Shown piece by piece: positions 4,400-17,828 of a DNA stretch of 19,258 bases (positions within the stretch are counted from its first letter, which is position 1; each line of letters starts with the position of its first letter). The stretch comes from a virus. Where the stretch lies: UHGV virus genome UHGV-0045429. The stretch is one strand, 5' to 3'. A model generated the notes under the pieces. The model did no database searches. It was not told where the DNA came from and saw only the letters and a program-made list of their open reading frames with translations. Position numbers and translations under genes: made by a program.

Positions 4400-4406
4400 A
4401 ATAACC

Positions 4407-4607
4407 TCAATAATGTTTATGTGAATGGCGTGCATTGCTTCTGCTTAAATTACAGCGCCGTGGTTCATGAATTTGTTTGTAGGAGATAGCATGCTCAAGG
4501 CTACAGAAATAAGCAGTCACTACTCTCTTATGAATTCTTTTTGTTGATTTATACATGGAATCATCAGAACTCCATTTTTTACAATACGGACAGCACTCAA
4601 GTGTCAC
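4407..4607 (-). CDS. Small Cys-rich ORF (possible zinc-binding protein); weakly supported
   Basis: 66-aa ORF with GTG start preceded by GGGAGGG; translation MTLECCPYCKKW... Position is analogous to the small ydaE/racC-type genes upstream of recE in Rac, but there is no sequence-level confirmation. Confidence 0.3.
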   Translation of the reverse strand: MTLECCPYCKKWSSDDSMYKSTKRIHKRVVTAYFCSLEHAISYKQIHEPRRCNLSRSNARHSHKHY

Positions 4608-4732
4608 TTACCCTCCCTGCATAGCTGGCTATGACAGGGCCATCATTGATGGATATAGTTAGCCCTGCCAGTTAAGGCATAAATAAAAACTCTCTTAATT
4701 GTTTGAAGTTATTGAAGGGGGTAAATAAAAGT

Positions 4733-4918
4733 TCAGCGTAAAAACTCGCTAATATTAACCCTCTGGTCGTTAACTATTTTGGTCATTACTTTGATGAAAC
4801 ACATATCCAGCACCGCCTCATCTTTATATTTTTGAACGCCGGTTATATCAGCCACAGCTTTTTTATATTCAGCTTCAGCTGTACGCTGGGCAATATCTTC
4901 GCTGGTAAATTTAACCAT
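4733..4918 (-). CDS. Hypothetical small early-left protein (61 aa)
   Basis: ATG at 4918 (MVKFTSEDIAQRTAEAEYKK...); 8-nt overlap with the upstream ORF suggests translational coupling. The track ORF from 4990 is probably an over-extension. Confidence 0.5.
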   Translation of the reverse strand: MVKFTSEDIAQRTAEAEYKKAVADITGVQKYKDEAVLDMCFIKVMTKIVNDQRVNISEFLR

Positions 4919-5105
4919 TGGCACGCACCATCCTGAGTAAAGATTCCGTGTGATCGAGAGCTGCCTTCTGTTGTTCGTACAGTGCCTCAAGTTCAGCTGT
5001 AAGGCGGTCGCGAAACGCAGGAACGCTTAACTGGTAAATAAAATTACTTACTGAGCTTTCCACATCAGGATCCCCGTCCGGTATAACTGGCTGTGAATTT
5101 TTCAT
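4911..5105 (-). CDS. Hypothetical small early-left protein (64 aa)
   Basis: ATG at 5105 (MKNSQPVIPDGDPD...) with a GGAGGG RBS immediately upstream; first ORF of the leftward operon. Confidence 0.55.
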   Translation of the reverse strand: MKNSQPVIPDGDPDVESSVSNFIYQLSVPAFRDRLTAELEALYEQQKAALDHTESLLRMVRANG

Positions 5106-5135
5106 AAACCCTCCGGTAAAAAGGTGCCCATCGTG

Positions 5136-5155
5136 GGAGATGGGCAAATACCACG
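5136..5155 (-). terminator. Terminator-like hairpin just upstream of the first early-left gene
   Basis: On the minus-strand transcript: GCCCATC-TCCCAC-GATGGGC followed by ACCTTTTTA (7-bp stem plus U-rich tail) immediately 5' of the RBS of the 64-aa ORF. Confidence 0.35.
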
Positions 5156-5182
5156 CGGCACACACTGCAATTAATCACATCT

Positions 5183-5246
5183 GCAAGCGCACTCCGCCTG
5201 TTTCACACCTGTCACCCATAACTGGTAAGTGAAGGAGTGCGCTTGC
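5183..5246. repeat. 13-bp perfect inverted repeat with 38-nt spacer inside the ORF-poor leader
   Basis: GCAAGCGCACTCC at 5183-5195 and its reverse complement GGAGTGCGCTTGC at 5234-5246; arms extend by a further 5 bp with a bulge. Confidence 0.5.
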
Positions 5247-5940
5247 ATGTTGTGTTCGCGGGGTCTACTTCCCTCCTGACACGGTTCTTTCCCCGCGTCA
5301 TCGTGTGTTCATTCGGTACATGAAACCCATTTGCCGGGATTCCACCGACTCCCATCTGTTTTTAAAGCCACTCAGATATCGTCTGGGCTTGCTCGTCTTT
5401 TCGAGCCGTCAGCGTTCTACTTCCCGCCGTCACTGCCGTGTTTACACAGTTGAACGTCTGCCGCTGTTCTCGGTGCTGGTACCGCCACTGTCCAGGACAT
5501 TTATAAGGGCCGTCTCCAAGTGGTAACTCTTCCAGTCCCGGTAAGAACCCTGCGAGATGCTTAGCGTGACTGGCTGTTATTCCCTGAAAAAGGCTGGCGG
5601 TTACCGGAAATACACGGGAAAACACCGGGCCGCCAAAACAGGGGGCTACTTGTTATTGCTTTGGCCTGCTTTTATCCACATCAGGCGCGGTGGTAGGTAT
5701 CTTCGGGCGGGGGCCAGTGACCAGCTGGCATCCCTACGGTACTTTTCACCGACAACCGCGGGTTAGACGGTTCCGTTTCGTCGGATAGAGCTGTCGATGC
5801 TGGTAGTCACTCCAGCCCGTAACCCCTCCCGAAGACACCTGTTTAGCGTTAAAACTTAAAATCTGTTTCCCCTTTATCGCCAGGGTAAGCGGAACAGTTT
5901 GATTCTGAGTAATCACTGCGTGTGGTTACTTGATGGAATA

Positions 5941-5996
5941 AACTTAGGTTAACTTAAGTTTTCAATCAAGATTTATTTTGTAGAAAAACCTAAGTT
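5941..5996. promoter_or_regulatory. Left operator-like region (OL analogue): inverted AACTTAGGTT / AACCTAAGTT half-sites downstream of the repressor gene
   Basis: AACTTAGGTT at 5941-5950 and its exact reverse complement AACCTAAGTT at 5987-5996. The 10-mer AAAACCTAAG (5985-5994) recurs exactly at 6521-6530 in the repressor/cro intergenic region. Confidence 0.45.
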
Positions 5997-6046
5997 TATG
6001 GGTGTAAAAACATAACTCATTGATTTTATGAGTTGAATATTTTGGT

Positions 6047-6463
6047 TTATTTTACTCGGGTTTTTCTTTTTCTCTTCTCTGCTTCTAGCAGTTCTTGCAG
6101 GCGGATGCTGTTGTTTTCGTTACGAGCGCGTAACTCTTCGAGGAAGCCGATCTGATCTGACTCGGGAAGTGAATCAAAGAGTTCTAATAACTCTAATTGA
6201 ATATCAGTTAATTCTCTTTGCTCTTCTAATGGTACCGGCGCGCCCGGAATCTGGGCCTCATCACCAAAAAGAAGCCATGCTGGCGCGCACTGCAGGCCTT
6301 TGCTAAGGGCGAACAACCTCTTTCCCGCCGGTTGAGTTTCATCGCGTTCCCACTGGGAAATAGTTACGTGTGCGACCTTTACCAGTTTGCCCAAGGCAGC
6401 CTGGGAAAGGTTTAGCTCTTTGCGTCGCCTTAAAAGACGAGTACCGAAGGTTTCTTTATCCAT
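6047..6463 (-). CDS. DicA/RacR-type prophage repressor (XRE-family HTH, no S24 peptidase domain)
   Basis: 138-aa ORF; N-terminal HTH (LNLSQAALGKLVKVAHVTISQWERDETQP), LFALSKGLQCAPAWLLFGDE and LELLELFDSLPESDQ closely parallel E. coli DicA as I recall it. No recognisable RBS before the ATG. Confidence 0.85.
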   Translation of the reverse strand: MDKETFGTRLLRRRKELNLSQAALGKLVKVAHVTISQWERDETQPAGKRLFALSKGLQCAPAWLLFGDEAQIPGAPVPLEEQRELTDIQLELLELFDSLPESDQIGFLEELRARNENNSIRLQELLEAEKRKRKTRVK

Positions 6464-6484
6464 ATTAGGTAATTCTAAATTCTC

Positions 6485-6531
6485 TTGACTTAAATTTCCC
6501 TACGATCTAGTTTCCTTAGGAAAACCTAAGG
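6485..6531 (+). promoter_or_regulatory. Right operator/promoter region (OR analogue) between divergent repressor and cro-like genes
   Basis: TTGACT at 6485-6490; perfect palindrome CCTTAGG-AAAA-CCTAAGG at 6514-6531, overlapping the AAGGAG RBS of the DicC-like gene. Confidence 0.5.
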
Positions 6532-6541
6532 AGATTTAATC

Positions 6542-6766
6542 GTGCTTAAAAAAGACGCAGTTATTTTTTTTGGAAGCAAATCAAAATTGGCAAAGGCTGC
6601 TGGTGTTGCTGCTTCATCAGTTTCTGTATGGGGCGACCTCGTGCCAGAGAAAAATGCGATGAGACTACAAATCGCTTCTGATGGTGCCCTGCGATATGAC
6701 CCCGAGGTCTATGACAAACATGCTAAAGCAAAACGGTCAGGAGAATTGAATGATGAAAATCAATGA
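6542..6766 (+). CDS. DicC/YdaS-like Cro-type regulator
   Basis: 74-aa ORF, GTG start with AAGGAG 8 nt upstream; MLKKDAVIFFGSKSKLAKAAG...GDLVPE...MRLQ...YDPEVYD closely matches E. coli DicC from memory; divergent from the repressor. Confidence 0.8.
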   Translation: MLKKDAVIFFGSKSKLAKAAGVAASSVSVWGDLVPEKNAMRLQIASDGALRYDPEVYDKHAKAKRSGELNDENQ

Positions 6767-7229
6767 GATCAAGTTACTGGCTATCGAGCTTGAAGAGTGG
6801 GCGATGAAGGATGGCAGGAAAGGGGGCTGGAAAAAGATTGTCCCACTGATTACCTCGCATCACTACGGTGATTTGCTGGATAGCCTGGCAGATATCGTGG
6901 ACCCGTCAGAGTATGTGCGCCGCCTGCATAACAACACGCAGATCATCCAGCGGGCATTTCGAAATGACACGCCGAACTATCGTGGTCAGGCAGCTGCGCT
7001 TGCGCCAGCAATCAGGGCTGCGATGGATGCAGAGCTGGCTGGTCAGCATGACTTACATAACCTGGTGGCCATTGCTAACCGCGAGTGCATCGAGGCGACC
7101 AGTGCGGTGCTGACTGGTAAGCCAATGCAGGTAATCCGCAAAGAAACGTCAGAGGCAATTCAGGCACTGGCCGATCTCATCCCCGGCGTCAGCATCCAGT
7201 TTAACCATATTGGTCCGCGCGCGGCGTAA
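6750..7229 (+). CDS. YdaT-like protein (third gene of the racR-ydaS-ydaT type immunity cluster)
   Basis: 159-aa ORF overlapping the DicC-like stop by 17 nt; AGGAG RBS; central NTQIIQRAFRNDTP...LAPAIRAAMD segment resembles the YdaT family as I recall it. Confidence 0.6.
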   Translation: MMKINEIKLLAIELEEWAMKDGRKGGWKKIVPLITSHHYGDLLDSLADIVDPSEYVRRLHNNTQIIQRAFRNDTPNYRGQAAALAPAIRAAMDAELAGQHDLHNLVAIANRECIEATSAVLTGKPMQVIRKETSEAIQALADLIPGVSIQFNHIGPRAA

Positions 7230-7241
7230 CAGGAGGCTCCC

Positions 7242-7484
7242 ATGCTTGCCCAGGAATTAGTAGACCGCATGAAAAATGCGATGAAGCACAAAGTACCGGC
7301 GGAGACAGTCGATCGCAGCGCTGAACTGATTCCGGGGATGAAATACCGCAACGAACGCGGACGCATGGTGACGGTAATGAGAGTTTCTCATCTTCGGGTT
7401 ATGTACCGATACGAAGGTTATCAGGACATCTGCGAGACAGGCCGGAGAGAGTTTGATTTGAAATTTAAGAAGGTGGAATTGTGA
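7242..7484 (+). CDS. Hypothetical phage protein (80 aa)
   Basis: ATG at 7242 with AGGAGG 5 nt upstream; tightly packed between the YdaT-like and HNH genes. Confidence 0.6.
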   Translation: MLAQELVDRMKNAMKHKVPAETVDRSAELIPGMKYRNERGRMVTVMRVSHLRVMYRYEGYQDICETGRREFDLKFKKVEL

Positions 7485-7486
7485 GT

Positions 7487-7840
7487 ATGAATTGCTGTGG
7501 CTGCCACAATCCTTTGGATGAGGACGAAATCTATAAACTTGCAGAGCGGTGCGGAATTTCGATCTGTGACCGTTGCGCGGGTAAGGTCGAACGCAGCTAT
7601 AACGAATGGCACGGTGGTCCTGGATATTTCCCCAAACCCCCTAAACACCCCCGCAAAAATATCTCACCGGGAGTGAGATTAAAAATTTATCGAAGGGATA
7701 AATACCGCTGTAAATATTGCGGCACCAGTGATGATCTCACCATTGATCATATTCAGCCTGTCTCTAAAGGCGGCGGAAATGAAGATGAAAATCTCCAGAC
7801 CTTATGTCGTGCCTGTAACCGCAGGAAGGGGGCGTCATGA
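7487..7840 (+). CDS. HNH endonuclease
   Basis: Cys-rich N-terminus plus H-N-H core ...DLTIDHIQPVSKGGGNEDENLQTLCRACNRRKG; ATG 7487 preferred over GTG 7481 because AGGTGGA lies 9 nt upstream. Confidence 0.8.
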   Translation: MNCCGCHNPLDEDEIYKLAERCGISICDRCAGKVERSYNEWHGGPGYFPKPPKHPRKNISPGVRLKIYRRDKYRCKYCGTSDDLTIDHIQPVSKGGGNEDENLQTLCRACNRRKGAS

Positions 7841-8772
7841 GCTCACTAATCAAGTTACTCGATCGCCCAGTGGCGTATCAACCAGCATTTGCACAGCTCA
7901 GGGCGGGAAAAGTGAAATCAGGCCCGTCGGCTGCTGTCCTGCTTTCCCAGTTCGTCTACTGGCATAACCGCATGGGCGGTGAGTGGATGTACAAGACGCG
8001 TGAAGACATAAAAAAAGAGACGGGGTTAAGCCGTGATGAGCAGGAAACAGCGAGAAAAAGACTGGTTGCTCTGGGGGTACTACAGGAAGAACTACGAGGG
8101 GTTCCTGCGACTGTACATTACAAAATTAATACCGGGCGTCTGGAGGTACTTTTGCTGGCTCCAGACCAGGCAGAATCACAGATGGGTGCAACGCCGCCAA
8201 CTAGAAAGCGGCAATCCCGCCAACTGGATGGCGGCAACACACCCAACAAGATGGCGGTAACCCCGCCAACAAGCAGGGGGGAATACCGCCAGCAAGATGG
8301 TGGTGATCCCGCCAACTTTCCTACAGGAGATTACACAGAGAGTACTCAGGAGATCACTCAAAGGGCCGGAGATGAATTTTCTGTGGATAACTTTTCTGAC
8401 GAGGACGTGAAATTTTCAGAGTGGTTCTTTGCTCGGGTCGTCGAGATGCATGAGCGAGCTGCTGAGTTTGACGGAACCATGTCACGCCCCGATGAACCTG
8501 ACTGGACTGAATGGGTGGGCGAGGTTCGCCTGCTGCGGGAAGAGCAGGGGTGCGATCACACGCAGATGCGCCGCATGGTTGAGCGCATTCAGGGGGATCC
8601 GTTCTGGTGCCCAAGGGTAAAAACCGCGCACGCCCTGCGGGACAAGTGGGCTGACCTGGTGGTGAGACTGTGCCCAGTGAGCTTGGCTGATCCGCCGCGA
8701 CAATCCACTTTCGACGATGAATATTACAAAAACGATTCTGAGTCCGCTGCGAAAGCAGGTTTCAGGATCTGA
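7837..8772 (+). CDS. Phage replication initiator (lambda O-like replisome organiser) with origin iterons inside the coding sequence
   Basis: 311-aa ORF, ATGA overlap with the HNH stop; N-terminal winged-helix-like segment (LLSQFVYWHNRMGGEWMYKTREDIKKETGLSRDEQETARKRLVALGVL); tandem DNA repeats in the middle of the gene encode the repetitive linker. Confidence 0.65.
   Translation: MSSLIKLLDRPVAYQPAFAQLRAGKVKSGPSAAVLLSQFVYWHNRMGGEWMYKTREDIKKETGLSRDEQETARKRLVALGVLQEELRGVPATVHYKINTGRLEVLLLAPDQAESQMGATPPTRKRQSRQLDGGNTPNKMAVTPPTSRGEYRQQDGGDPANFPTGDYTESTQEITQRAGDEFSVDNFSDEDVKFSEWFFARVVEMHERAAEFDGTMSRPDEPDWTEWVGEVRLLREEQGCDHTQMRRMVERIQGDPFWCPRVKTAHALRDKWADLVVRLCPVSLADPPRQSTFDDEYYKNDSESAAKAGFRI
8190..8320. 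repeat. Iteron-like direct repeats (putative replication origin)
   Basis: CCCGCCAAC at 8216-8224, 8262-8270 and 8308-8316 (plus CCGCCAAC at 8194-8201), each preceded by GATGG(C/T)GG at 8227, 8250 and 8295; unit about 22-24 bp; CCGCCA/TGGCGG gives internal dyad symmetry. Confidence 0.6.
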
Positions 8773-8800
8773 GAGAACTGAATTTAACCTGGAGAATTTT

Positions 8801-9463
8801 ATGGAAACCATTTTAGACGTACTGAAAGCGATGGAAAAAGCGACTGCCCGTGAAATTGCGGCGCGCATGAAAATTGAGCCGGCGGCGGTGATCGGGATGC
8901 TGCGTGAGCACGAAGAGCGTAATGAGGCTGTTCAGGCTAACGGGTACTGGAAAGTTGCCACCGGGGAAGTTAAATCACAGCCAAAAGCGATCAGTTCTTT
9001 CAGCAAAGCGCCGGTAAGTGTATCAGTCAGCGACGTCATCGCATTACTGGCGGAACATGGGCCACAGACATCCCTTGAGCTGGCAACACTGGCAGGTATT
9101 GAGTCAAAACGTGTGGCGCCAATGCTGACTCACCACATGACAAAAGGGCGGATCATCCGCGAAAAAGTAGGCAGCAAGTTTGTTTATTCGGTGCCGGCCA
9201 CTGCGTCAGTGAAAAACAAAAGCTCTGCACCACGGGAACCGGAAACATCAACACCACTGGTACCAGAAAAATCTGTCACTGAAATTGTTGAGGAAATCCC
9301 CGCTTTCGTCAGCCGTCCTGATGATCTGCTGATCCCAACGGTACGCGGTATCTCAAGTGAAATTCGGCGCACAAAAGCGAAGCTGGCTAACCTGGAAAAA
9401 CTTCGTGAAGCCGTTCGCAGCATTCGCAAACACGGCGCGCTGATGCAGGAGCTGGCGCAATGA
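8801..9463 (+). CDS. Hypothetical protein with two tandem winged-helix-like segments
   Basis: Start taken at METILDVLKAMEK (GGAG RBS); two similar blocks (ILDVLKAMEKATAREIAARMKIEPAAVIGML... and VIALLAEHGPQTSLELATLAGIESKRVAPML...). No Walker motif, so not a DnaC/P-type helicase loader. Confidence 0.6.
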   Translation: METILDVLKAMEKATAREIAARMKIEPAAVIGMLREHEERNEAVQANGYWKVATGEVKSQPKAISSFSKAPVSVSVSDVIALLAEHGPQTSLELATLAGIESKRVAPMLTHHMTKGRIIREKVGSKFVYSVPATASVKNKSSAPREPETSTPLVPEKSVTEIVEEIPAFVSRPDDLLIPTVRGISSEIRRTKAKLANLEKLREAVRSIRKHGALMQELAQ

Positions 9464-9684
9464 AACAGTCTGAGTTACCGCGCTGTCCGGCCTGCGGAAA
9501 TATGCCCGAATACGCGCTAAAGCCAAACCATATGGGATGGGTATGGGGTGGATTGAAATGTCCGTATGACCATTACCGCGTGAATTTGGATGGTCCAGCC
9601 GGTAGCCGCGTGCAGGCAGAAAAAAAGCTGGCGCCACAGTGGATTGAACTGGTCGAGAAAGCTAATCAGGAGAAATCAGCGTGA
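9460..9684 (+). CDS. Small zinc-ribbon protein, possibly Lar-type restriction alleviation family
   Basis: 74-aa ORF; AGGAG RBS; LPRCPACGN...GLKCPYDHY (C-x2-C ... C-x3-H) pattern. Family call is tentative. Confidence 0.5.
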   Translation: MKQSELPRCPACGNMPEYALKPNHMGWVWGGLKCPYDHYRVNLDGPAGSRVQAEKKLAPQWIELVEKANQEKSA

Positions 9685-10043
9685 AACCAACCTACGAAGA
9701 ACTGACAGTACAGCTCGCTAACGCCGAGAGCAAGTGCAGGGAGCTGGTGGTGGAATGTTCGACAATCAAAGCCATGAGCGATTGCCTGTCTGAAGAGCTG
9801 CGTGGTTATGAATCTGATGGGGCGTTTGAAGGACCGAAGATGCATCTACTGTGGTGGAAAGCAGAAACTCCCGCGACCGACGCTTTCCTGGCTGAAGTGC
9901 GGGCGCAGGTCCACAAGGAAGGTGCTCACTTTGTAGCAAATAGAATGCTGGCCGCCACTCTTTTTGTTTTCGTTATCCTCAATGCACCCGCATGTAACCC
10001 GCTTCGGCGGGTTAGCTTCTTCTATCTGAGATTTTGTTGCTAA
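9681..10043 (+). CDS. Hypothetical protein (N-terminal coiled-coil-like, hydrophobic C-terminus)
   Basis: GTG start with AGGAG 9 nt upstream, overlapping the previous stop. The C-terminal ~15 codons read through hairpin 9996-10013, so the 3' end may be a fusion artefact. Confidence 0.45.
   Translation: MKPTYEELTVQLANAESKCRELVVECSTIKAMSDCLSEELRGYESDGAFEGPKMHLLWWKAETPATDAFLAEVRAQVHKEGAHFVANRMLAATLFVFVILNAPACNPLRRVSFFYLRFCC
9996..10013 (+). terminator. Hairpin AACCCGC-TTCG-GCGGGTT (copy a of a repeated terminator-type stem-loop); weak U-tract
   Basis: Perfect 7-bp stem with tetraloop; identical 18-mer recurs at 17742-17759. Confidence 0.4.
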
Positions 10044-10205
10044 ACGCAGTCTTACCGTTCTATCTGCAGGCATTGAGTAACTAAGTTCAAATGTTACATT
10101 GATCACGTTTTTTAACGTCTCAAAACCTCATTGGTATTGAGTTCCTTTGTGGTAATGATTTTGTTGGATAAAATAGCCAATATCTCAAGGAGTAGGTAAC
10201 CACTA

Positions 10206-10559
10206 ATGATCAATGATGTTAAAAATGCAAAAATTGAAGAATATTTCACCGTTCTAAAAGAAAAGAGCAGACCTCCAAGCAAAGGTGGGAACACAAAGGC
10301 TCTGCATGCCCACTACATTAAAATTGATGGAATGTTATACAGTTTTCTCGCGTTCGGTTCTAAGCAATGGATTTTCAAAACCGACCGAGTATCATTTAAG
10401 TTCGAAATGAACGGCGAATACAGGAATATTCTCCGGGAATCCATTAGCACTATTGATAGCAATGGGGAAGTAGTAATCAGAGGGTTGCGTGGTTTTAGCA
10501 AGAAGATAAGGACTGCTGATACGCGTTTACCAGCATCCAGAAGGGAATGCAGGGATTGA
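10206..10559 (+). CDS. Hypothetical protein (117 aa) in AT-rich cargo cassette
   Basis: ATG at 10206 with AAGGAG upstream; AT-rich codon usage unlike the flanking phage core (by eye); no family recognised. Confidence 0.6.
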   Translation: MINDVKNAKIEEYFTVLKEKSRPPSKGGNTKALHAHYIKIDGMLYSFLAFGSKQWIFKTDRVSFKFEMNGEYRNILRESISTIDSNGEVVIRGLRGFSKKIRTADTRLPASRRECRD

Positions 10560-10712
10560 ATATGTAATTTGTGTCGAATTTGCAATCATTAGCTAGCAAA
10601 TTGAATAAGTAACATAATAATTTTCATGAATAATATGAATAAAAAACCAGGATGACATACTAGGTGTTTCCGGTATCTTATCTATATATTATTTACGTTC
10701 AAGTGACTTTAA

Positions 10713-10874
10713 ATGACTGGCCAGCAACTTACTGAGCTCGAAATCGCTTATGGTGGGGAAGCTTACTCAGATAATGAAATTGATGCGAAAACAGTAGCTA
10801 AATCACTAAAGGATGTTGAACATTCAATGTCAGTGCATTCAAACGCCCTTCAAAGCGACGCTGATAAGTCTTAA
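10713..10874 (+). CDS. Small acidic ORF (53 aa) below the ORF-track threshold
   Basis: ATG 10713 to TAA 10872-10874 (MTGQQLTELEIAYGGEAYSDNEIDAKTVAKSLKDVEHSMSVHSNALQSDADKS), ending directly before terminator b; weak RBS. Confidence 0.3.
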   Translation: MTGQQLTELEIAYGGEAYSDNEIDAKTVAKSLKDVEHSMSVHSNALQSDADKS

Positions 10875-10889
10875 AGTTCGTGTACTGCT

Positions 10890-10912
10890 AACCCGCTACG
10901 GCGGGTTTTTTT
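10890..10912 (+). terminator. Rho-independent terminator (copy b): AACCCGC-TACG-GCGGGTT plus T7
   Basis: Perfect 7-bp GC-rich stem, tetraloop, run of seven T. Confidence 0.75.
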
Positions 10913-10968
10913 ATGCCCCTTACCAATAAATAATTAACCTGAATTATTGTAAATTATTGAGGTTTGTT

Positions 10969-11607
10969 ATGGGTGGCATTTTCGATGAATCATGGTCTGA
11001 GCAATTTACTCAACGCGTTGAGGCTTTGCGTAAACTGGATGATCAGTCCGTTACTCAACCGCTTTTCAGAGAAAAAGCGGATCTGATTTTTACTCAAATG
11101 GCTGACCGTGTTCGTTCGCGTACGCGACAGCAGCTCGGAGAAATCGACGTTAGCGGGATAACATTTGATTACGCAATCCGCTATTACGTTAATCACGACA
11201 CTGGTGATCCGGTTCTGGATCACCTTGTGTCCAGGGTAGGGCCATTCTGTGACCAGATGAAGATCAGCACGGAGGCGTACGGCACAGCGGCGTTCTGCTG
11301 CGCGCTCATGATGTTGAAAGGCGAGTTGCGTATAGCGTATGCATTTTTCAGCATGCTGATGCGCCCGCTCGTTTCTGCGTACAGGTATAACACCGACGCG
11401 AAACGACGTGGCTCTGCTGGTGGGCGCCCGACAAATCCACTTAAAAACGAGGCACTGGAACTGGCGCGGGTATTTACAAAATCCTATCCTGATTCAACGA
11501 TGGTGGCTGTTGTTAACGCCGTCATTTCTGACCTTGAATCTCACTACGTTGGCACTCCGTCAGCACGCACAATAAAGCGCTGGATTCAGCAGGACCGGAA
11601 AAAATAA
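10969..11607 (+). CDS. Hypothetical protein with C-terminal resolvase-type HTH-like segment (putative DNA-binding regulator)
   Basis: ATG 10969 (GAGG RBS; the track start at 10957 is a TTG). C-terminal GGRPTNPLKNEALELARVF...TPSARTIKRWIQQ resembles the GRP-led HTH of serine recombinases, but no recombinase catalytic domain is present. Confidence 0.55.
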   Translation: MGGIFDESWSEQFTQRVEALRKLDDQSVTQPLFREKADLIFTQMADRVRSRTRQQLGEIDVSGITFDYAIRYYVNHDTGDPVLDHLVSRVGPFCDQMKISTEAYGTAAFCCALMMLKGELRIAYAFFSMLMRPLVSAYRYNTDAKRRGSAGGRPTNPLKNEALELARVFTKSYPDSTMVAVVNAVISDLESHYVGTPSARTIKRWIQQDRKK

Positions 11608-11614
11608 CCCCTCC

Positions 11615-11660
11615 GGACAAAACCTTCTTTTGTCGGCATAACCTGGTTTTGTCCGTTTTA
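11615..11660 (+). terminator. Terminator-like hairpin: GGACAAAACC ... GGTTTTGTCC followed by GTTTTATC
   Basis: 10-bp perfect inverted repeat (11615-11624 / 11645-11654) downstream of the 212-aa ORF. Confidence 0.5.
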
Positions 11661-11700
11661 TCATCAAAAAAAATACGTAGAATCCGTCTCACACTTTTTG

Positions 11701-11745
11701 TTGAGACATCTCCCGGATGAGGTGATACTGTTTATATATACAGTA
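11701..11745 (+). promoter_or_regulatory. SOS-regulated promoter: near-consensus LexA box TACTGTTTATATATACAGTA overlapping the -10 element
   Basis: CTG-N10-CAG at 11728-11743; 19/20 match to the E. coli LexA consensus TACTGTATATATATACAGTA; TTGAGA (-35, 11701-11706) and GATACT (-10, 11724-11729) with 17-bp spacing. Confidence 0.65.
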
Positions 11746-11773
11746 TTTGGTCTCTGAATTATCGGGAGATAAT

Positions 11774-11974
11774 ATGCAAATAACTAATGAATTAGTGCCT
11801 GGTGCCTCGGCCCACACAGGACCAGTTTTAATTCAACTGGTGGCGGGTGAAGTGCAAGGTGGCTTTATTTTAAGAGATGATGAATTTGTCACATCTATCT
11901 CCACACTAAATGAAACAAGAATTATGGCCGGATTAGACCCCGCGCCTTTTACCCGATCCCTAACTGATTTATAA
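11774..11974 (+). CDS. Small protein (66 aa) under the LexA box; candidate SOS-induced antirepressor
   Basis: ATG 11774 with GGGAGA RBS, 28 nt downstream of the LexA box; MQITNELVPGASAHTGPVLIQLVAGEVQGGF... No family recognised; function inferred from context only. Confidence 0.5.
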   Translation: MQITNELVPGASAHTGPVLIQLVAGEVQGGFILRDDEFVTSISTLNETRIMAGLDPAPFTRSLTDL

Positions 11975-12036
11975 TAATCACTCGCGAGCGTGAACAACTC
12001 GCAGCTGAGTAACACTGCGCCAACCGGAAATAAACG

Positions 12037-12351
12037 ATGGCGCGTAAAAAATCGTATATAACCAAAGCCGAGCAACAGCACCTCGATCGCGTAGCGTCGT
12101 TGGGTTGTTGTGTCTGCAAAAATCTTGGTTACCCCGACTCTCCAGCGGGGATTCATCATATCCGAACCGGGCAGGGTGCAAGCCAGCGCTCCAGCCATTT
12201 CGAAACTCTGCCGTTATGCGCTGCCCACCACCAGACGGGTGGCTATGGCATTGCTTATCACGCTGGCCCTGAGATATGGGCGAAAAAATACGGCACCGAA
12301 ACTGAGCTATTAATTCAGGTTACGTCAGATTTAAACGGGGACTGGTCATGA
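12037..12351 (+). CDS. YbcO-like nin-region protein (putative nuclease, Cys/His-rich)
   Basis: 104-aa ORF directly upstream of and overlapping rusA, as ybcO-rusA in DLP12; CCVCKN...HHIR...PLCAAHH metal-binding-like pattern. Confidence 0.6.
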   Translation: MARKKSYITKAEQQHLDRVASLGCCVCKNLGYPDSPAGIHHIRTGQGASQRSSHFETLPLCAAHHQTGGYGIAYHAGPEIWAKKYGTETELLIQVTSDLNGDWS

Positions 12352-12707
12352 CCCGTTACCCCGTAACTCCAATCGGCAAACCCCGAATGACAAGAGCCGA
12401 CAAATGGAAGCAGCGCCCGCCGGTGCTCCGTTATCGTGTTTTCTGCGACGAGGTGCGCCTGCATGAAATCGTTCTGCCTGAAAGCGGCGCCCACGTTATT
12501 TTTGTTCTGCCAATGCCAGCGAGCTGGAGCCAGAAAAAACGCGCCAGCATGAACGGACAGCCTCACCAGCAAAAACCGGATATAGACAACCTCACCAAAT
12601 CCCTCATGGATGCCATTTACGACGACGACGCCCACATTTGGGACGTCCGTGCATCAAAAATCTGGGGTGATGAAGGCGCGATTATTATTCAGGAGGGCAA
12701 GGCGTGA
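12348..12707 (+). CDS. rusA: RusA-family Holliday junction resolvase
   Basis: 119-aa ORF; ...KPDIDNLTKSLMDAIYDDDAHIWD... matches the RusA acidic catalytic region as I recall it. Confidence 0.8.
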   Translation: MTRYPVTPIGKPRMTRADKWKQRPPVLRYRVFCDEVRLHEIVLPESGAHVIFVLPMPASWSQKKRASMNGQPHQQKPDIDNLTKSLMDAIYDDDAHIWDVRASKIWGDEGAIIIQEGKA

Positions 12708-14245
12708 TGCCCTTAACATACGGATCCGTATGCAGCGGAATTGAGGCAGCGAGTGTGGCGTGGGAGGTATTGGGCTGGCGGCCGTCATGGTTTTCTCAGT
12801 TCGATCCGGAACACAATTACAAAAACGGTCCTGATTTCCCGTCTGCGGTGCTGGCGCATCACTGGCCGCACGTAAAAAACCTTGGCGATATGACAAAAAT
12901 CGCCGCAGCAATCCGGCTCGGAGAAATTGAAGCGCCCGACGTTCTGGTAGGTGGTACTCCCTGCCAGGCATTCAGCATTGCTGGACTGCGTAATGGCCTG
13001 ACGGATTCACGCGGCCAACTAACCCTCGCTTTTGTAGAACTGGTAAACGCAATTGATGAAAAACGAAGAGAACAGGGAAAACCACCCGTCATTGTCGTCT
13101 GGGAAAATGTCCCCGGAGTATTCAGCAGCAGAGATAACGCTTTCGGATGTTTTCTTGCAGGGCTTGCCGGCGAAAGCCGTGAACTGGAATCACCAGGGCG
13201 AAAATGGACAAACGCTGGTTATGTGCTGGGACCAGAAAGGGCTGTCTGCTGGCGAGTGCTCGACGCTCAATTTTTCGGAGTGGCCCAACGACGCCGCCGT
13301 GTGTTTGTTATCGCAAGCGCTAGAGGGGATATCGATCCCGCAAAAATACTTTTTGAGTCCGAAGGCATGCGCCGGGATACTCCGCCGCGCAGAGAAACGG
13401 GGGAGATCGTTGCCGCCCTTATTGCAAACGGCGTTGGAGTGTGTGGCGCAGACGATAATCAGGGGCAGGCAGGGCACCTGATTGCCATGGCGCACGGACA
13501 GGCAGGGGCAGAAATTAAAACGGATGATTCCGCGCCTACGCTTACCTGTAACCATGAAGCGCCTATTGTTTTTAGCTGTAATGGACACGCATCGTTTACG
13601 CCGGGAGTCAGTGCTCTGCGAACTAAATCAGGCGCAGACCATGAAACGCTGGCTGTTCATGGTACGCAAGATCCCGACACTTTAAAGAACCTGGCACATA
13701 CGCTGGGTCGAAACCATGGGCAAGAGAATGCCGTTGCCTACTGTCTCCAGCATGCACAAATTAACCGGGCAGATAACGCTGGCCCACAGGGTAAAGGATG
13801 GCAAGAAGAATGCAGATTCACTCTGGATTCTCGTTCTTGTGCTGATGCAGTCGCTTATGCCTTCAAGGCCGGGCAGGGCGCAAAAGCGGGTGGCATTGGC
13901 TGGGCAGAGGAACAATCCCCGACACTGACGGCCGCCAGCAGTGGATCGAATTTATCCCCTTCAGTGGTGAAAAATATGGCCGTTCGCCGCCTTACTCCTG
14001 TCGAATGTGAACGCCTGCAGGGCTTCCCCGATAACCACACTTTAATCCCCCGTGATAAGCGTAAGCAGATTACTGCTGATGAGTACGCATACGCGCGCCA
14101 CCACAACCCAAAAATAACCGCAGAGGAAGCCTACAGGCTGGCGAAGGATGGTCCGCGCTATAAGGCCATTGGTAACAGCATGGCCGTACCGGTTATGCGC
14201 TGGATAGGAAGGCGAATCTCTAACGCTCTGGAGCAGACAATATGA
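12707..14245 (+). CDS. Orphan DNA (cytosine-5) methyltransferase
   Basis: Motif I-like YGSVCSGIEAA, motif IV GGTPCQAFSIAG, motif VI VVWENVPG, QRRRRVF, C-terminal RRLTPVECERLQGFPDNHT and GNSMAVPV; large variable region between. AGGAGGG RBS; start overlaps the rusA stop. No adjacent restriction endonuclease ORF. Confidence 0.9.
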   Translation: MPLTYGSVCSGIEAASVAWEVLGWRPSWFSQFDPEHNYKNGPDFPSAVLAHHWPHVKNLGDMTKIAAAIRLGEIEAPDVLVGGTPCQAFSIAGLRNGLTDSRGQLTLAFVELVNAIDEKRREQGKPPVIVVWENVPGVFSSRDNAFGCFLAGLAGESRELESPGRKWTNAGYVLGPERAVCWRVLDAQFFGVAQRRRRVFVIASARGDIDPAKILFESEGMRRDTPPRRETGEIVAALIANGVGVCGADDNQGQAGHLIAMAHGQAGAEIKTDDSAPTLTCNHEAPIVFSCNGHASFTPGVSALRTKSGADHETLAVHGTQDPDTLKNLAHTLGRNHGQENAVAYCLQHAQINRADNAGPQGKGWQEECRFTLDSRSCADAVAYAFKAGQGAKAGGIGWAEEQSPTLTAASSGSNLSPSVVKNMAVRRLTPVECERLQGFPDNHTLIPRDKRKQITADEYAYARHHNPKITAEEAYRLAKDGPRYKAIGNSMAVPVMRWIGRRISNALEQTI

Positions 14246-14877
14246 TGACCCCACGACAAAAACGAGCTCACAAATCAGCACTGGAACATGCGGCAGCCGC
14301 ACCGAATAAGCGCTGGCTGGGGAAATCAATACTGCTCACCGGTATTCAGTCAGCCTGGATCAAATCGCTACTCTGTGTTTGGGGTGAAAGTATTCGCGGT
14401 GGAATGGCACCAGGAACGCCGAAAGGCCACGCGTGCTGGCGGTCGCTAAAGGGTATGCGCTGGTCCGATAAATCGCTCGAGCGTTTTACAGAGGCACTGA
14501 CTCAGGCGAGAGGTGAGGGATTTAAAGGCGAGCTGGCGTTAAAACGTGCACACGCGATTCTCTGGCCCACAAAACCGGTTAGCGTTATCGACGAGGCTAT
14601 AACGGACGATGATGCAGATTTTATGGAAGCGTGCGTGCTGGAGGCGTTTGAAACAACGGATCCGGTTTACGTTATTGGGGTGAGCTACTACACGACGAGG
14701 AAAAAAATCTCGGACCTGACCCGGGATATTCAGCAGATAGCCCCCAGGCTGACTCCGGATGAGGCAAGAAAGCGCGTGCGCTGGTGTGTTGAAATATTCG
14801 GGGCGCGCGTGTATCTGGAGGCACGCCGTCAGTTACACGCTGATTTACAGAAATCAGAATCTGGCGGGAAAATATGA
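14242..14877 (+). CDS. Putative late-gene antiterminator (Q-like); assignment from position and size
   Basis: 211-aa ORF overlapping the MTase stop; GGAG RBS; sits where Q lies in lambdoid genomes (after the nin/rusA block). Family membership not confirmed by any motif. Confidence 0.45.
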   Translation: MMTPRQKRAHKSALEHAAAAPNKRWLGKSILLTGIQSAWIKSLLCVWGESIRGGMAPGTPKGHACWRSLKGMRWSDKSLERFTEALTQARGEGFKGELALKRAHAILWPTKPVSVIDEAITDDDADFMEACVLEAFETTDPVYVIGVSYYTTRKKISDLTRDIQQIAPRLTPDEARKRVRWCVEIFGARVYLEARRQLHADLQKSESGGKI

Positions 14878-15037
14878 TTTTTGAAATAGAAAATAAGCCG
14901 AATTAATTCAATAAAAATATATAATTACAAATGCCAACATGATTGCATTTGTGTTGGTTATAGTAATTGATTTGTTATATGAAAATGAAATGCTTATAAC
15001 AATCCGCGAAGAATAAAATTAATATATCGAGGACATA

Positions 15038-15334
15038 ATGAAAGAACTATCAGCAAAAGATTTACTACATAAATATTCAAGCCCGCTTGATTCAGTAAGC
15101 CTATTTAACGCAATGCATCTCGCTGGTTTAATTGAAGTAAAGGAATATATTTCCTCGACAGGAAGTGGTGAGATTAAGACCTATCGATCGCTAACTGAGA
15201 GCGGTTTGAAGTATGGGATCAATAAAAGATCTAGTTATAGTGATGCAACTGACTTAAAGTTTTTTCCTTCAAACTTCCATGAATTGTTGGTATTGGTATC
15301 AAAGGAGATTTTGAAGCATTCAGAGATGCTTTAA
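15038..15334 (+). CDS. Hypothetical protein (98 aa) in AT-rich cargo
   Basis: ATG 15038 with GAGGA RBS; preceded by a 160-bp AT-rich promoter-like region directly after the Q-like gene. Confidence 0.5.
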   Translation: MKELSAKDLLHKYSSPLDSVSLFNAMHLAGLIEVKEYISSTGSGEIKTYRSLTESGLKYGINKRSSYSDATDLKFFPSNFHELLVLVSKEILKHSEML

Positions 15335-15415
15335 GGTTTTGATTGAAATCGATGTAGTGGAAAAGAAAACCTCGGCCTGGCAACCGGGGTTCTATAGCGC
15401 GCAAACTTTACCTTT

Positions 15416-15628
15416 TTAGCGTGATTTTTTTCGTTTGAAAAACTCGTAAATTTCGATGCCAACAATAGCGATGGCGTAAAAAGGCCAAAGAAAAGAGGTT
15501 CTAACCGTATCCAGCAGGTCAAATTCCATATCGAGTATTCGATCCGCATGAACCAACAGTGCGAACATCACGATAAATCCCGCGACGTTTAAGGCTAGGT
15601 AAAGATAGAGACTCATGGCTAAATCCAT
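15416..15628 (-). CDS. Small hydrophobic (membrane) protein, convergent with the 98-aa ORF
   Basis: 70-aa ORF; two predicted hydrophobic helices (LYLYLALNVAGFIVMFALLV and FLWPFYAIAIVGIEI) and basic C-terminus KRKKSR; weak RBS. Confidence 0.45.
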   Translation of the reverse strand: MDLAMSLYLYLALNVAGFIVMFALLVHADRILDMEFDLLDTVRTSFLWPFYAIAIVGIEIYEFFKRKKSR

Positions 15629-15812
15629 TTATTAAGGTTTGCTGTGAGTCTACGTGCGATAACCACACAATTAAAAATTGGTATTACAGATCGATTTATC
15701 TTTATCGATCGTTGAAAACGATCGTCATGACACAAATAGCTTAGTGATTGATTGTTATTTAATCAGTTGGAGCCAATTATTTAGTAATTAGTGCTTATTT
15801 TATTAAGCGGCA

Positions 15813-15840
15813 TTGAAAACGAGCCATATTTATTGATAAT
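15813..15840 (+). promoter_or_regulatory. Sigma70-type promoter: TTGAAA (-35), 16-bp spacer, GATAAT (-10)
   Basis: TTGAAA at 15813-15818 and GATAAT at 15835-15840; predicted start about 15847. Confidence 0.4.
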
Positions 15841-15847
15841 TACCTCA

Positions 15848-15935
15848 TGCTTGGCAGAGCTGCGCCACGATGGCAGCGACGATAAGCGAACAATTTGAAC
15901 ATAACGAGAACCCCGCCAGCGCGGGGTTTTTGCTT
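15848..15935 (+). ncRNA. Candidate ~90-nt small RNA or late-leader transcript (promoter to intrinsic terminator, no credible ORF)
   Basis: Only a 12-codon ORF without RBS lies between the promoter and terminator; internal GCTGC...GCAGC stem. Entirely a sequence-based prediction. Confidence 0.3.
15909..15935 (+). terminator. Rho-independent terminator: CCCCGC-CAGC-GCGGGG plus T5
   Basis: Stem 15911-15916 / 15921-15926 followed by TTTTT at 15927-15931. Confidence 0.7.
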
Positions 15936-15946
15936 TCCGGCGATCC

Positions 15947-15989
15947 GACAGGGGTATTCGCGAACGTGCTACGGCACAGTACCCCTGTC
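15947..15989. repeat. 10-bp perfect inverted repeat GACAGGGGTA ... TACCCCTGTC (23-nt spacer)
   Basis: Arms at 15947-15956 and 15980-15989, immediately downstream of the terminator. Confidence 0.45.
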
Positions 15990-16175
15990 AGATCGTCGTT
16001 ATGGTTACTTCTATATGTCAGTTTAGGCCGACATCATTTGTGCCTATCCTTCTGGTCTATTGGATGAGTCAAACGTACCTTGAATGAGGATTGTAGGTGC
16101 CAGCCCGTAAGCCCTGCGGCATGGGGCTTAGTCGAAAAAACACCTCTTTTTTGCAACTTTTTATCACGTTTTCCC

Positions 16176-16223
16176 GTGACAAGATCCTGTTTACTGTTAG
16201 AATCACTCCACATGATTCATGTG
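16176..16223 (+). promoter_or_regulatory. Promoter of the two-gene operon with operator-like palindrome
   Basis: GTGACA (-35, 16176-16181), 16-bp spacer, extended -10 TGtTAGAAT (16195-16203); palindrome CACATG-ATT-CATGTG at 16209-16223 at the predicted start site. Confidence 0.4.
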
Positions 16224-16280
16224 ATGTGAATCTTTTAAAAAAAATAAAAACACATCTATTTCAACGAGTAAGCTCAAAAA

Positions 16281-17446: not shown

Positions 17447-17460
17447 CTCACCAATTATTG

Positions 17461-17488
17461 AAACCCGCTACGGCGGGTTTTCTTTTTC
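17461..17488 (+). terminator. Rho-independent terminator (copy c): AACCCGC-TACG-GCGGGTT plus T-rich tail
   Basis: 18-mer identical to copy b (10890-10907); followed by TTTTCTTTTTC. Confidence 0.75.
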
Positions 17489-17541
17489 GCTTCATCAATT
17501 CCTGCTACGATTCCCTGTCTTTTACTGATGGGGATAGGGAT

Positions 17542-17709: not shown

Positions 17710-17740
17710 TTATTAATAAATAGCACTCGCCATCAAAATC

Positions 17741-17763: not shown

Positions 17764-17828
17764 ACTCTCTAACGGATATGTTATTTTCATGCAATAAGAG
17801 CGATTAGTAAGATGCTGCTGGGGAGAAC

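What the first reader, a model, noticed from the sequence alone, without database searches (positions are those of the whole stretch)
10044..10912. AT-rich cargo cassette in the nin region (117-aa and 53-aa ORFs) bracketed by the repeated terminator hairpin
The segment is visibly more AT-rich than the flanking phage genes, carries its own promoter-like upstream region, and lies exactly between terminator copies a and b. An inverted repeat AATTTGC...GCAAATT (10576-10601) sits between the two ORFs. Neither protein matches a family I recognise. A large-then-small acidic ORF arrangement could be a toxin/antitoxin or a defence/anti-defence pair.
Basis: partly seen in the sequence, partly recalled or inferred. 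Interest (0 to 1): 0.5.

Follow-up and report, generated by a model that had tools for sequence, protein, structure and literature searches.

The report
Prophage cargo gene plus deletion scar
The AT-rich stretch is real foreign cargo in a lambda-like prophage, but it is not a two-gene toxin/antitoxin pair: it is one intact, horizontally mobile gene for a small uncharacterised DNA-binding-type (OB-fold) protein, followed by the 53-codon scar of a neighbouring three-gene candidate-defence module that was deleted.

Summary
GC is 0.38 against 0.50-0.53 in the flanks, both ORFs exist, and GC-rich tetraloop hairpins sit at 9996 and 10890. The AATTTGC inverted repeat is no better than chance.

The segment is not one cassette. 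It has two parts.

(1) 9957/9974-10560 is hairpin a, a conserved promoter-like leader and ORF117. ORF117 is under purifying selection (dN/dS 0.10-0.15). It belongs to a rare family with no curated name, found in phages, ICEs and plasmids of several phyla. The protein is basic (pI 9.9) and modelled as an OB fold resembling SSB, PriB and RecO. It has an invariant RPPSKGGN loop and a basic tail. None of 80 related viral nin-region loci carries it, so it is a classic single-gene moron.

(2) 10560-10912 is a deletion scar. Metagenome contig L144 keeps the intact arrangement: ORF117, then a 289-aa LAPAL/PDC-S42 gene, a 79-aa gene, a 131-aa gene and a terminator. In the window about 1.35 kb is missing. 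Codon ~27 of gene 1 is fused in frame to the last ~25 codons of gene 3, which gives ORF53. Hairpin b is that module's own terminator.

The toxin/antitoxin or defence/anti-defence pair reading is not supported. The function of ORF117 is only inferred, probably nucleic-acid binding in conflicts between mobile elements and hosts.

The parts
9681..10043 (+). 3'-truncated EaE/Ea22-like gene. The authentic sequence ends at about 9956. The last 29 codons are read-through into imported DNA and through hairpin a.
   Evidence: It matches HK225 gp53 up to ...HFVANRMLAA and then diverges, and HK225 continues for about 50 more residues. PHROG hits cover only residues 13-93. Phage and E. coli DNA matches stop at window 9955.
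9957..9973 (.). Left recombination junction of the imported AT-rich block.
   Evidence: EaE homology ends at 9956. Homology to the Citrobacter portucalensis ORF117 block starts at 9974.
9996..10013 (+). Hairpin a, AACCCGC-TTCG-GCGGGTT, with a weak T tract. It travels with the ORF117 block.
   Evidence: -14 kcal/mol. A homologous hairpin with a different loop sits at L001 5793 and a similar one at L021 5896, both upstream of the ORF117 homologue.
10134..10205 (+). Conserved leader of ORF117. It holds a promoter-like TTTGTG (10146-10151), a 17-nt spacer, TAAAAT (10169-10174) and a Shine-Dalgarno AAGGAG (10187-10192).
   Evidence: It is conserved in window, L001, L021, L022, L005 and L144, while sequence further upstream is unrelated. 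It falls below the threshold of the consensus scan. Promoter function is inferred.
10206..10559 (+). ORF117, an intact gene for a basic 13.5-kDa OB-fold protein of an unnamed family carried on mobile elements.
10560..10712 (.). Spacer with 26% GC. It is the native upstream region of the LAPAL/PDC-S42 gene.
   Evidence: It is colinear with L144 and L145 as part of one 80% HSP covering window 10134-10792.
10577..10602 (.). Inverted repeat AATTTGC/GCAAATT. It is not a significant feature.
   Evidence: dG is -6 kcal/mol, z is -0.59, and 57 of 200 shuffles fold as well. It is not conserved in L001.
10713..10874 (+). ORF53, the in-frame deletion scar. Bases 10713 to about 10797 are the 5' end of a LAPAL/PDC-S42 gene. 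Bases from about 10798 to 10874 are the 3' end of the third gene of that module. The junction lies at 10793-10799.
   Evidence: Residues 1-32 are 75% identical to the N-terminus of the L059 288-aa protein, with 86% nucleotide identity. Residues 23-53 are 68% identical to the last 31 residues of the L144 131-aa protein. The full-length L059 protein matches PDC-S42 at 5e-46, LAPAL_fam at 231 bits and phrog_3243 at 1e-70.
10890..10912 (+). Hairpin b with a 7-T run. It is the intrinsic terminator of the LAPAL module and a landmark at the right end of the variable region.
   Evidence: It is 100% identical over 23 nt to L059 4131-4153, which lies 10 nt after the stop of that module's last gene. The same kind of hairpin sits about 500 nt upstream of Rem in L071, L076, L120 and L059.

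Best explanation
The segment lies in the variable slot between the replication genes and the nin-type genes (Rem, Ref-like, RusA, methylase) of an integrated lambdoid element. It holds two adjacent pieces of AT-rich cargo.

Piece 1 (9957/9974-10560) is a complete single-gene moron. It consists of a stem-loop, a conserved promoter-like leader with an RBS, and ORF117. ORF117 encodes a small basic OB-fold protein.
- Its invariant residues are the RPPSKGGN loop between the first strands, H34/H36 on the next strand, an RG.R motif and a +5 charged flexible tail. These lie on the face that OB folds normally use for ligands.
- I infer that it binds nucleic acid, most likely single-stranded DNA or a DNA intermediate.
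- I infer that it serves the mobile element in conflict with host or rival elements, by protecting or marking DNA or by interfering with helicase/nuclease-type immunity. I do not think it has a housekeeping phage role.

Piece 2 (10560-10912) is what remains of a three-gene LAPAL/PDC-S42 module. A deletion of about 1.35 kb joined codon ~27 of gene 1 in frame to the last ~25 codons of gene 3. That produced ORF53 and left the module's upstream spacer and terminator (hairpin b) in place.

What is shown: the anatomy, the homology, selection on ORF117, variable presence and the deletion. What is inferred: promoter activity, nucleic-acid binding and the conflict role.
For: Anatomy:
- The EaE gene is truncated.
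- L144 carries the intact arrangement ORF117 / 289 aa / 79 aa / 131 aa / hairpin.
- The identity of the LAPAL module is shown.

ORF117 is a real gene: dN/dS 0.10-0.15 and 20 invariant residues across 44 sequences from Enterobacteriaceae to Sphingomonadales.

Moron behaviour:
- It is AT-rich here and also in a siphovirus tail operon, where it sits between the chaperone-like DUF6246 gene and the tape-measure gene and is followed by a terminator. That is the site of the archetypal HK97 gene 15 moron (PMC3594210).
- Terminator hairpins directly follow the gene in L014, L019 and L018.
- It is absent from 80 of 80 Ref-carrying viral loci.
- It is rare: 1 of 50,697 phage records, 7 of 72,556 plasmids and 28 of 185,579 species genomes.

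DNA-related function:
- Family pI of 9.3-10.2 with a +5 tail.
- Fusion in roughly 260-aa relatives to an N-terminal domain whose best structural match is the DNA-binding scaffold of I-HmuI.
- Neighbours are DNA-centred. These are ArdC/DUF2958/ParB_N in ICEs, parA-RHH operons 18 nt upstream in 6 plasmid-type groups, and Shango SngB/SngC(/SngA) genes directly upstream in two divergent loci.
Against: - No experiment or sequence-level match ties ORF117 to any characterised protein.
- The conserved loop and the tail are the low-confidence parts of the model (pLDDT 55-63).
- No neighbour is shared by more than 6 of 77 groups, so guilt by association is weak and points in several directions.
- The promoter is below the consensus-scan threshold.
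- In the window there is no terminator directly after ORF117.
- ORF53 retains an ATG, stays in frame and has a coding-like GC1 > GC2 > GC3 pattern, so it could still be translated.
Confidence: 0.72

Rival explanations
1. ORF117 and ORF53 form a two-gene toxin/antitoxin or defence/anti-defence pair expressed as one cassette between the two hairpins.
For: The two ORFs are on the same strand in one AT-rich island between two hairpins. One is basic and one is acidic. Two relatives (L144, L145) also have ORF117 next to LAPAL-module DNA.
Against: ORF53 is a fusion of the ends of two different genes. It has no free-standing homologue and is not annotated in the source genome. ORF117 homologues in about 75 other groups have unrelated neighbours. 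The LAPAL module occurs without ORF117 in L059 and L060. The two ORFs are separated by 153 nt with no Shine-Dalgarno before ORF53. Neither matches a TA family.
Confidence: 0.03
2. ORF117 is a prophage-expressed defence or superinfection-exclusion protein. Like HK97 gp15 in the same tail-operon slot, it would be made in the lysogen and block incoming phage DNA. It may work with, or be related to a subunit of, Shango-type helicase/ATPase systems.
For: It has moron architecture and sits in the HK97 gene 15 slot in siphoviruses (PMC3594210). It lies next to a defence-like AAA_15/AAA_21 ATPase pair in Citrobacter, next to HNH-WYL and TA genes in a Geobacteraceae island, and directly downstream of SngB/SngC(/SngA) in L141 and L170.
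Against: PADLOC gives no hit. It has no effector or membrane domain. It is also found where establishment or anti-defence genes sit, next to ArdC/ParB_N in ICEs, and in par operons of plasmids. Its very high conservation across phyla argues for a universal target rather than a specific phage protein.
Confidence: 0.2
3. ORF117 is a displaced tail-assembly-chaperone-like structural gene, with no function in the nin region.
For: Homologues sit between the major tail/DUF6246 genes and the tape-measure gene in at least 5 groups of siphoviruses. There are weak hits to two PHROGs annotated as tail assembly chaperone: E = 0.025 for ORF117, and 2 of 44 members at 5e-4 or better.
Against: There is a 95-nt gap and no G/GT frameshift arrangement. 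In those phages the gene is an AT-rich island with its own terminator. Other genes are inserted around it in L015, L018 and L019. The same family is under purifying selection in prophage nin regions, ICEs and plasmids that have no tails. Its fold is OB.
Confidence: 0.05
4. ORF53 is not an inert scar. It is a translated mini-protein retained for a function, such as a dominant-negative fragment or regulator of LAPAL-type modules.
For: It keeps the original ATG and upstream spacer, stays in frame, keeps the native stop and terminator, and has GC1 0.59 > GC2 0.36 > GC3 0.32.
Against: One deletion in three is in frame by chance. The exact product is found in no other record. It occurs only in this one genome and its own read set. 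There is no Shine-Dalgarno motif upstream.
Confidence: 0.1

Closest known systems
Phage morons (Juhala et al. 2000; reviewed in PMC3594210), e.g. HK97 gene 15
   Same: It is an extra gene with GC content unlike its neighbours. It has its own promoter-like leader and terminator hairpins and is absent from related phages. Homologues occupy the very slot of HK97 gene 15, between the tail chaperone and the tape measure.
   Different: HK97 gp15 is a small inner-membrane protein. ORF117 is a soluble basic OB-fold protein with no sequence relation to it. Expression from the repressed prophage has not been tested.
Bacterial and plasmid SSB/PriB-type OB-fold ssDNA-binding proteins (Pfam SSB PF00436), including SSBs of plasmid leading regions
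   Same: It has a single OB barrel of about 100 residues followed by a flexible tail. The best structural matches include SSB, PriB, RPA32 and RecO-N. It is carried on ICEs and plasmids near ArdC, ParB and par genes.
   Different: There is no sequence match to the SSB profile or to any PDB chain. The tail is basic (+5), not the acidic DDDIPF-type tip. It has a unique invariant RPPSKGGNTxALHxH motif. Its oligomeric state and ssDNA binding are unknown.
LAPAL-motif protein family (NCBIfam NF053583) = PADLOC candidate PDC-S42 = phrog_3243, with its two small downstream genes (phrog_27630, phrog_26468)
   Same: The first 27-32 residues of ORF53, its upstream spacer and its terminator are homologous to this module.
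   Different: Only the two ends survive, and about 1.35 kb including almost all of the 289-aa protein is gone. The module itself is only a candidate. No publication was found for it.
Shango defence system (SngA TerB-domain protein, SngB ATPase, SngC helicase; Millman et al., bioRxiv 10.1101/2022.05.11.491447)
   Same: ORF117-family genes lie directly downstream of SngB/SngC-type genes in two divergent loci, L141 and L170.
   Different: The window has no Sng genes near ORF117. The association is seen in 2 of 77 groups only. No published Shango description that I found mentions such a fourth gene.

Membership tests
Moron (Juhala 2000; PMC3594210) | [quoted passage not shown] | tested here: met
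   GC is 0.377-0.40 against 0.50-0.53 in the flanks, the 2.4th percentile. The same holds for homologues in L010 and L144.
Moron (Juhala 2000; PMC3594210) | Present as extra DNA that related phages lack. | tested here: met
   0 of 80 Ref-carrying viral loci have an ORF117 homologue, including 22 with the DUF1627 backbone and 8 close relatives. It is absent from complete E. coli genomes and from all but one phage record.
Moron (Juhala 2000; PMC3594210) | Own promoter, giving expression from the repressed prophage. | tested here: inconclusive
   A TTTGTG-17-TAAAAT motif is positionally conserved in enterobacterial homologues but falls below the scan threshold. No transcript data are available.
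Moron (Juhala 2000; PMC3594210) | Own terminator. | tested here: inconclusive
   A terminator directly follows the homologue in L010, L014, L018 and L019. In the window the first good terminator is hairpin b, 330 nt downstream, and it belongs to the LAPAL module.
Type II toxin-antitoxin pair | Two adjacent genes that are conserved together. | tested here: not met
   The neighbours of 77 non-redundant ORF117-family groups are unrelated. ORF53 has no free-standing homologue.
Type II toxin-antitoxin pair | Similarity of either protein to known toxin or antitoxin families. | tested here: not met
   Pfam, NCBIfam and PADLOC give no such hit.
SSB family (PF00436) | OB-fold core. | tested here: met
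SSB family (PF00436) | Sequence match to the family profile. | tested here: not met
   There is no Pfam hit at E <= 0.1 and no PDB sequence hit at E <= 10 with the family profile.
SSB family (PF00436) | Acidic C-terminal protein-interaction tip. | tested here: not met
   The tail ...RTADTRLPASRRECRD has a net charge of +5, and this is conserved across the family.
SSB family (PF00436) | Binds single-stranded DNA. | not testable with these tools
   This needs EMSA or fluorescence titration with purified protein.
LAPAL_fam / PDC-S42 / phrog_3243 (for ORF53) | Full-length match of about 290 aa above the curated cut-off. | tested here: not met
   ORF53 scores 21 bits against a cut-off of 60, covering only profile positions 2-37 of 292. 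The intact L059 protein scores 231 bits.
LAPAL_fam / PDC-S42 / phrog_3243 (for ORF53) | Homology of the N-terminus and start codon. | tested here: met
   75% amino-acid and 86% nucleotide identity to the 5' end of the L059 gene. The region is colinear with L144.
Shango (SngABC) | SngA, SngB and SngC genes adjacent. | tested here: not met
   ORF117, ORF53 and both neighbours have no Sng hit in PADLOC. The adjacency is seen only in the distant loci L141 and L170.
Tail assembly chaperone | Located between the major tail and tape-measure genes, with a G/GT-type arrangement. | tested here: not met
   The window copy is in the nin region. In siphoviruses the gene is separated by 95 nt, is AT-rich and has its own terminator. 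PHROG similarity is marginal.

The most novel reading that the evidence does not exclude
The ORF117 family may be a new class of small DNA-binding factor that is shared between Shango-type helicase/ATPase immune systems and mobile elements. The free-standing copies on phages, ICEs and plasmids would be element-encoded decoys or inhibitors (or sensors) derived from a defence-system subunit. That would explain the extreme conservation across phyla and the spread across every kind of mobile element.
Probability: 0.1. Interest if true: 0.7.

Novelty: new member of a known kind. Interest (0 to 1): 0.35.

Why it matters
As a genomic feature this is ordinary. Lambdoid phages are known to carry AT-rich morons at module boundaries, and a deletion scar is not a gene.

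Two points are worth keeping:
- Short in-frame ORFs inside cargo islands can be the fused ends of deleted modules. Pairing them with a neighbour as toxin/antitoxin is therefore risky.
- ORF117 defines an unnamed, strongly conserved OB-fold family. It has 20 invariant residues from Enterobacteriaceae to Sphingomonadales and beyond. It moves as a single gene among phages, ICEs and plasmids, is sometimes fused to a homing-endonuclease-type DNA-binding domain, and twice sits directly after Shango genes.

The family is cheap to test and could turn out to be an establishment, anti-defence or defence accessory factor.

Tried and rejected
- Megablast of the region and of 7000-15000 against phage and E. 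coli collections matched only the EaE-like gene and the methylase.
- blastn of 10560-10968 against phages gave nothing.
- ORF53 found nothing in the 5.8-billion protein search, tblastn against phages, IMG/VR peptide patterns or exact look-up. Its origin emerged only from loci fetched for other reasons.
- The phrog_5215 neighbour had no relatives in IMG/VR and exists as this exact protein only in the source genome.
- Rfam gave no family at gathering scores and only chance-level hits at E <= 1, so an ncRNA in the 410-bp gap was dropped.
- The inverted repeat as an operator or terminator was dropped because its stability is at shuffle level.
- The idea that the hairpins are copies of a mobile repeat was dropped because their flanks are unrelated and the design is ubiquitous.
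- Foldseek against viral structures had no hit at E <= 0.001.
- The afdb50 library was unavailable.
- Pfam on fused and long homologues gave nothing.
- The literature searches did not identify this family, and the two terms searched for the module's first protein, PDC-S42 and LAPAL motif, returned no paper.
- A second fused homologue (P0053) is not next to Shango, so that association is not general.
Full report
**Observation**

The window is an integrated lambdoid element. Its genes are:
- integrase, 746-2035 (minus strand)
- YdfE-type exonuclease
- cI-like repressor, 6047-6463 (minus strand)
- Cro
- YdaT-like gene
- HNH gene
- O-like initiator, 7837-8772
- DUF1627 protein
- a 74-aa ORF
- an EaE/Ea22-like ORF, 9681-10043
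- the segment in question
- a phrog_5215 protein, 10969-11607
- Rem
- a Ref-like nuclease
- RusA
- a C5 methylase
- a Q-like protein, 14242-14877

The source is assembly GCA_902363475.1.

The segment 10044-10912 has GC 0.377. That is the 2.4th percentile of all windows of that size. The flanks are 0.532 to the left and 0.502 to the right. Both ORFs exist.

The motif AACCCGCNNCGGCGGGTT occurs four times, at 9996, 10890, 17462 and 17742, against 0.03 expected. Only the 18-nt stem-loop is shared and the flanks are unrelated. The same C(UUCG)G or C(UACG)G hairpin occurs in many unrelated phage loci fetched later. It is a common terminator design, not copies of one element.

The AATTTGC/GCAAATT inverted repeat (10577-10602) folds at -6 kcal/mol with z = -0.59, and 57 of 200 shuffles fold as well. 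It is chance level. No Rfam family matches.

**ORF117 is a real gene and the left boundary is further left**

ORF117 has 46 homologue clusters at 45-95% identity. The closest are in Citrobacter portucalensis (95%) and E. coli and E. whittamii (75-76%). Others come from Sphingomonas, Sphingobium and many metagenomes.

Against four enterobacterial homologues, dN/dS is 0.10-0.15.

blastn against the Citrobacter prophage locus L001 gives one block covering window 9974-10560 at 89%. The block contains hairpin a, the leader and the gene, and ends exactly at the stop codon. The next shared block starts at Rem, at 11727.

The EaE-like ORF is identical in register to phage HK225 gp53 up to ...HFVANRMLAA (nt ~9956) and then diverges, while HK225 continues for about 50 residues. 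The foreign block therefore entered at 9957-9973 and truncated that gene. The last 29 codons of the 120-aa ORF are read-through.

E. coli, E. whittamii, Enterobacter mori and the metagenome contig L144 share only 10134/10160-10569. This is the gene plus about 45-72 nt of leader. The leader holds a positionally conserved TTTGTG-17-TAAAAT motif and a Shine-Dalgarno sequence. The generic promoter scan does not reach its threshold here, so promoter activity is an inference.

**ORF53 is a deletion scar**

ORF53 has no homologue as a small protein. It was not called in the source annotation. Its N-terminus gave weak hits to the first ~45 positions of three ~295-aa profiles: phrog_3243 at 1.3e-5, NCBIfam LAPAL_fam at 1.7e-4 and PADLOC PDC-S42 at 1.1e-3.

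The viral contig L059 was fetched with the Ref-like protein. In the same slot upstream of Rem and Ref it carries:
- a 288-aa gene that matches PDC-S42 at 5e-46, LAPAL_fam at 231 bits and phrog_3243 at 1e-70
- an 85-aa gene
- a 132-aa gene
- the hairpin TAACCCGCTACGGCGGGTTTTTT, which is 100% identical to hairpin b

These features are shown. ORF53 residues 1-32 are 75% identical to the start of the 288-aa protein, with 86% nucleotide identity over 80 nt.

The metagenome contig L144 is the decisive relative. Window 10134-10792 aligns to it in one 80.6% piece. That piece covers ORF117, the 26%-GC spacer and the first 80 nt of ORF53.

In L144 the ORF117 homologue (83% amino-acid identity) is followed by:
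- a full 289-aa LAPAL gene
- a 79-aa gene
- a 131-aa gene ending ...LIAKSLKDVDHSLAVHSNALQSDTEKS
- a hairpin
- small ORFs
- a NinB-like gene

ORF53 residues 23-53 are 68% identical to the last 31 residues of the 131-aa protein, and both end at the stop codon.

The three-way DNA alignment places the junction at window 10793-10799. About 1.35 kb is missing and the fusion is in frame. Hairpin b is therefore the native terminator of that module. A hairpin of the same kind sits at the right end of the variable region, about 500 nt upstream of Rem, in L059, L071, L076 and L120.

**Variable presence**

None of the 80 viral loci with a Ref-like gene has an ORF117 homologue. Twenty-two of them share the DUF1627...Ref/RusA/Q backbone. 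Eight are close relatives, with DUF1627 at 91-97% identity. These carry about 3 kb of other, mostly AT-rich, small genes in the same slot.

The family is rare:
- 1 of 50,697 phage records
- 0 of 5,426 complete E. coli genomes, even when queried with the E. coli variant
- 7 of 72,556 plasmids
- 28 of 185,579 species genomes
- 153 representatives among 1.84 billion proteins

**What ORF117 may do**

The family alignment has 20 invariant residues: Y13, R22-P23-P24-S25, G27-G28-N29, A32, H34, H36, F64, N74, G87, R92-G93, R95, R102, R107 and P109.

The family is uniformly basic, with pI 9.3-10.2 and a conserved +5 tail.

The contexts are diverse. In 77 non-redundant groups, no neighbour family occurs in more than six. 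The recurring contexts are:
- alphaproteobacterial ICEs with ArdC, DUF2958, ParB_N and then the gene
- parA-RHH operons with the gene 18 nt downstream, for example Sphingomonas taxi pSTP2
- siphovirus tail operons, between DUF6246 and the tape measure
- the position next to an integrase
- two divergent loci where it directly follows Shango-type SngB/SngC(/SngA) genes

In the siphovirus slot the gene is an AT-rich island followed by a terminator. This is the slot of the original HK97 gene 15 moron (PMC3594210).

I conclude that ORF117 is a self-contained, horizontally mobile accessory gene. Its product most likely binds nucleic acid. I cannot decide whether it helps the element establish itself, counters host immunity or protects the lysogen.

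**Comparison with known systems and verdict**

The feature meets the compositional and distributional criteria of a moron. The promoter and terminator criteria are only partly testable.

It fails the tests for a toxin-antitoxin pair. It fails membership of the SSB family on sequence and on tail chemistry, although it shares the fold. ORF53 fails full-length membership of the LAPAL/PDC-S42 family because it is a fragment.

The finding is a correct observation with a partly wrong interpretation. As a genomic feature it is ordinary. The unnamed OB-fold family is a reasonable small target for experiment.

Noticed in passing
window 700-18300: The element has an integrase (746-2035, minus strand), immunity, replication and nin genes and a Q-like gene (14242-14877). 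After Q there are only a few unknown ORFs before a host-like hydrolase gene (18320-19258, minus strand). No lysis or structural genes are present in the window. It looks like a ~17-kb defective prophage or remnant.
   Followed up: partly
window 14850-15900; also 4200-4950 and 5850-6150: These are further AT-rich islands. GC falls to 0.28 just after the Q-like gene, and to 0.36-0.39 in the early-left and immunity regions. They may be additional cargo or regulatory regions.
   Followed up: no
window 17462-17479 and 17742-17759: Hairpin copies c and d are strong terminator-like stem-loops (z -4.3 and -4.7). They bracket an 83-aa TTG ORF (17458-17709) near the right end of the element.
   Followed up: no
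L141 1-5789 and L170 206-3874: ORF117-family genes lie directly downstream of Shango-type genes in two divergent metagenome loci. L141 has an ATPase, SngC (1.7e-272), SngA (1.5e-89) and then the fused 262-aa OB protein. L170 has a homologous ATPase (50% identity), a helicase (43% identity) and then a short OB gene, with no SngA.
   Followed up: partly
L139 (Sphingomonas taxi plasmid pSTP2) 3990-5345; also L048, L191, L194, L197, L204: In six plasmid-type groups the OB gene starts 17-19 nt after an ~89-aa gene that follows a ~225-aa gene. In the annotated pSTP2 record these are a ribbon-helix-helix gene and parA. The OB gene looks like a third gene of a partition operon.
   Followed up: partly
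L001 2835-5566 (Citrobacter portucalensis prophage): A two-gene minus-strand unit sits immediately upstream of the ORF117 homologue. It encodes a 516-aa AAA_15/AAA_21-type ATPase and a 298-aa protein with no Pfam hit. It occupies the place of the window's 74-aa and EaE-like genes and looks like a defence module.
   Followed up: no
L024 4105-4550 (Zobellella sp. DQSA1): Eight copies of a hairpin-containing repeat (GT(T/C)TCCCCCGCGAAGGCGGGGG...) occur at a 60-61-bp period, about 1.4 kb upstream of the OB gene. The spacing and repeat look like a CRISPR array.
   Followed up: no
L059 2600-4153, L060 ~7400-7800, L144 3325-4860: The LAPAL/PDC-S42 gene always comes with two small downstream genes (79-85 aa and 131-132 aa; phrog_27630 and phrog_26468) and a terminator. 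It looks like a three-gene unit, whereas I take the 'S' in the PADLOC name PDC-S42 to mean a single-gene candidate. In L059 the N-terminus of gene 1 and a C-terminal stretch of gene 3 resemble each other. That may have favoured the deletion.
   Followed up: partly
window 12704-14245: The 513-aa C5 cytosine methylase gene in the nin region matches E. coli and Enterobacter phage genes at 77-78% identity. Those genes are variously annotated as Dam-family or Dcm methyltransferases.
   Followed up: no
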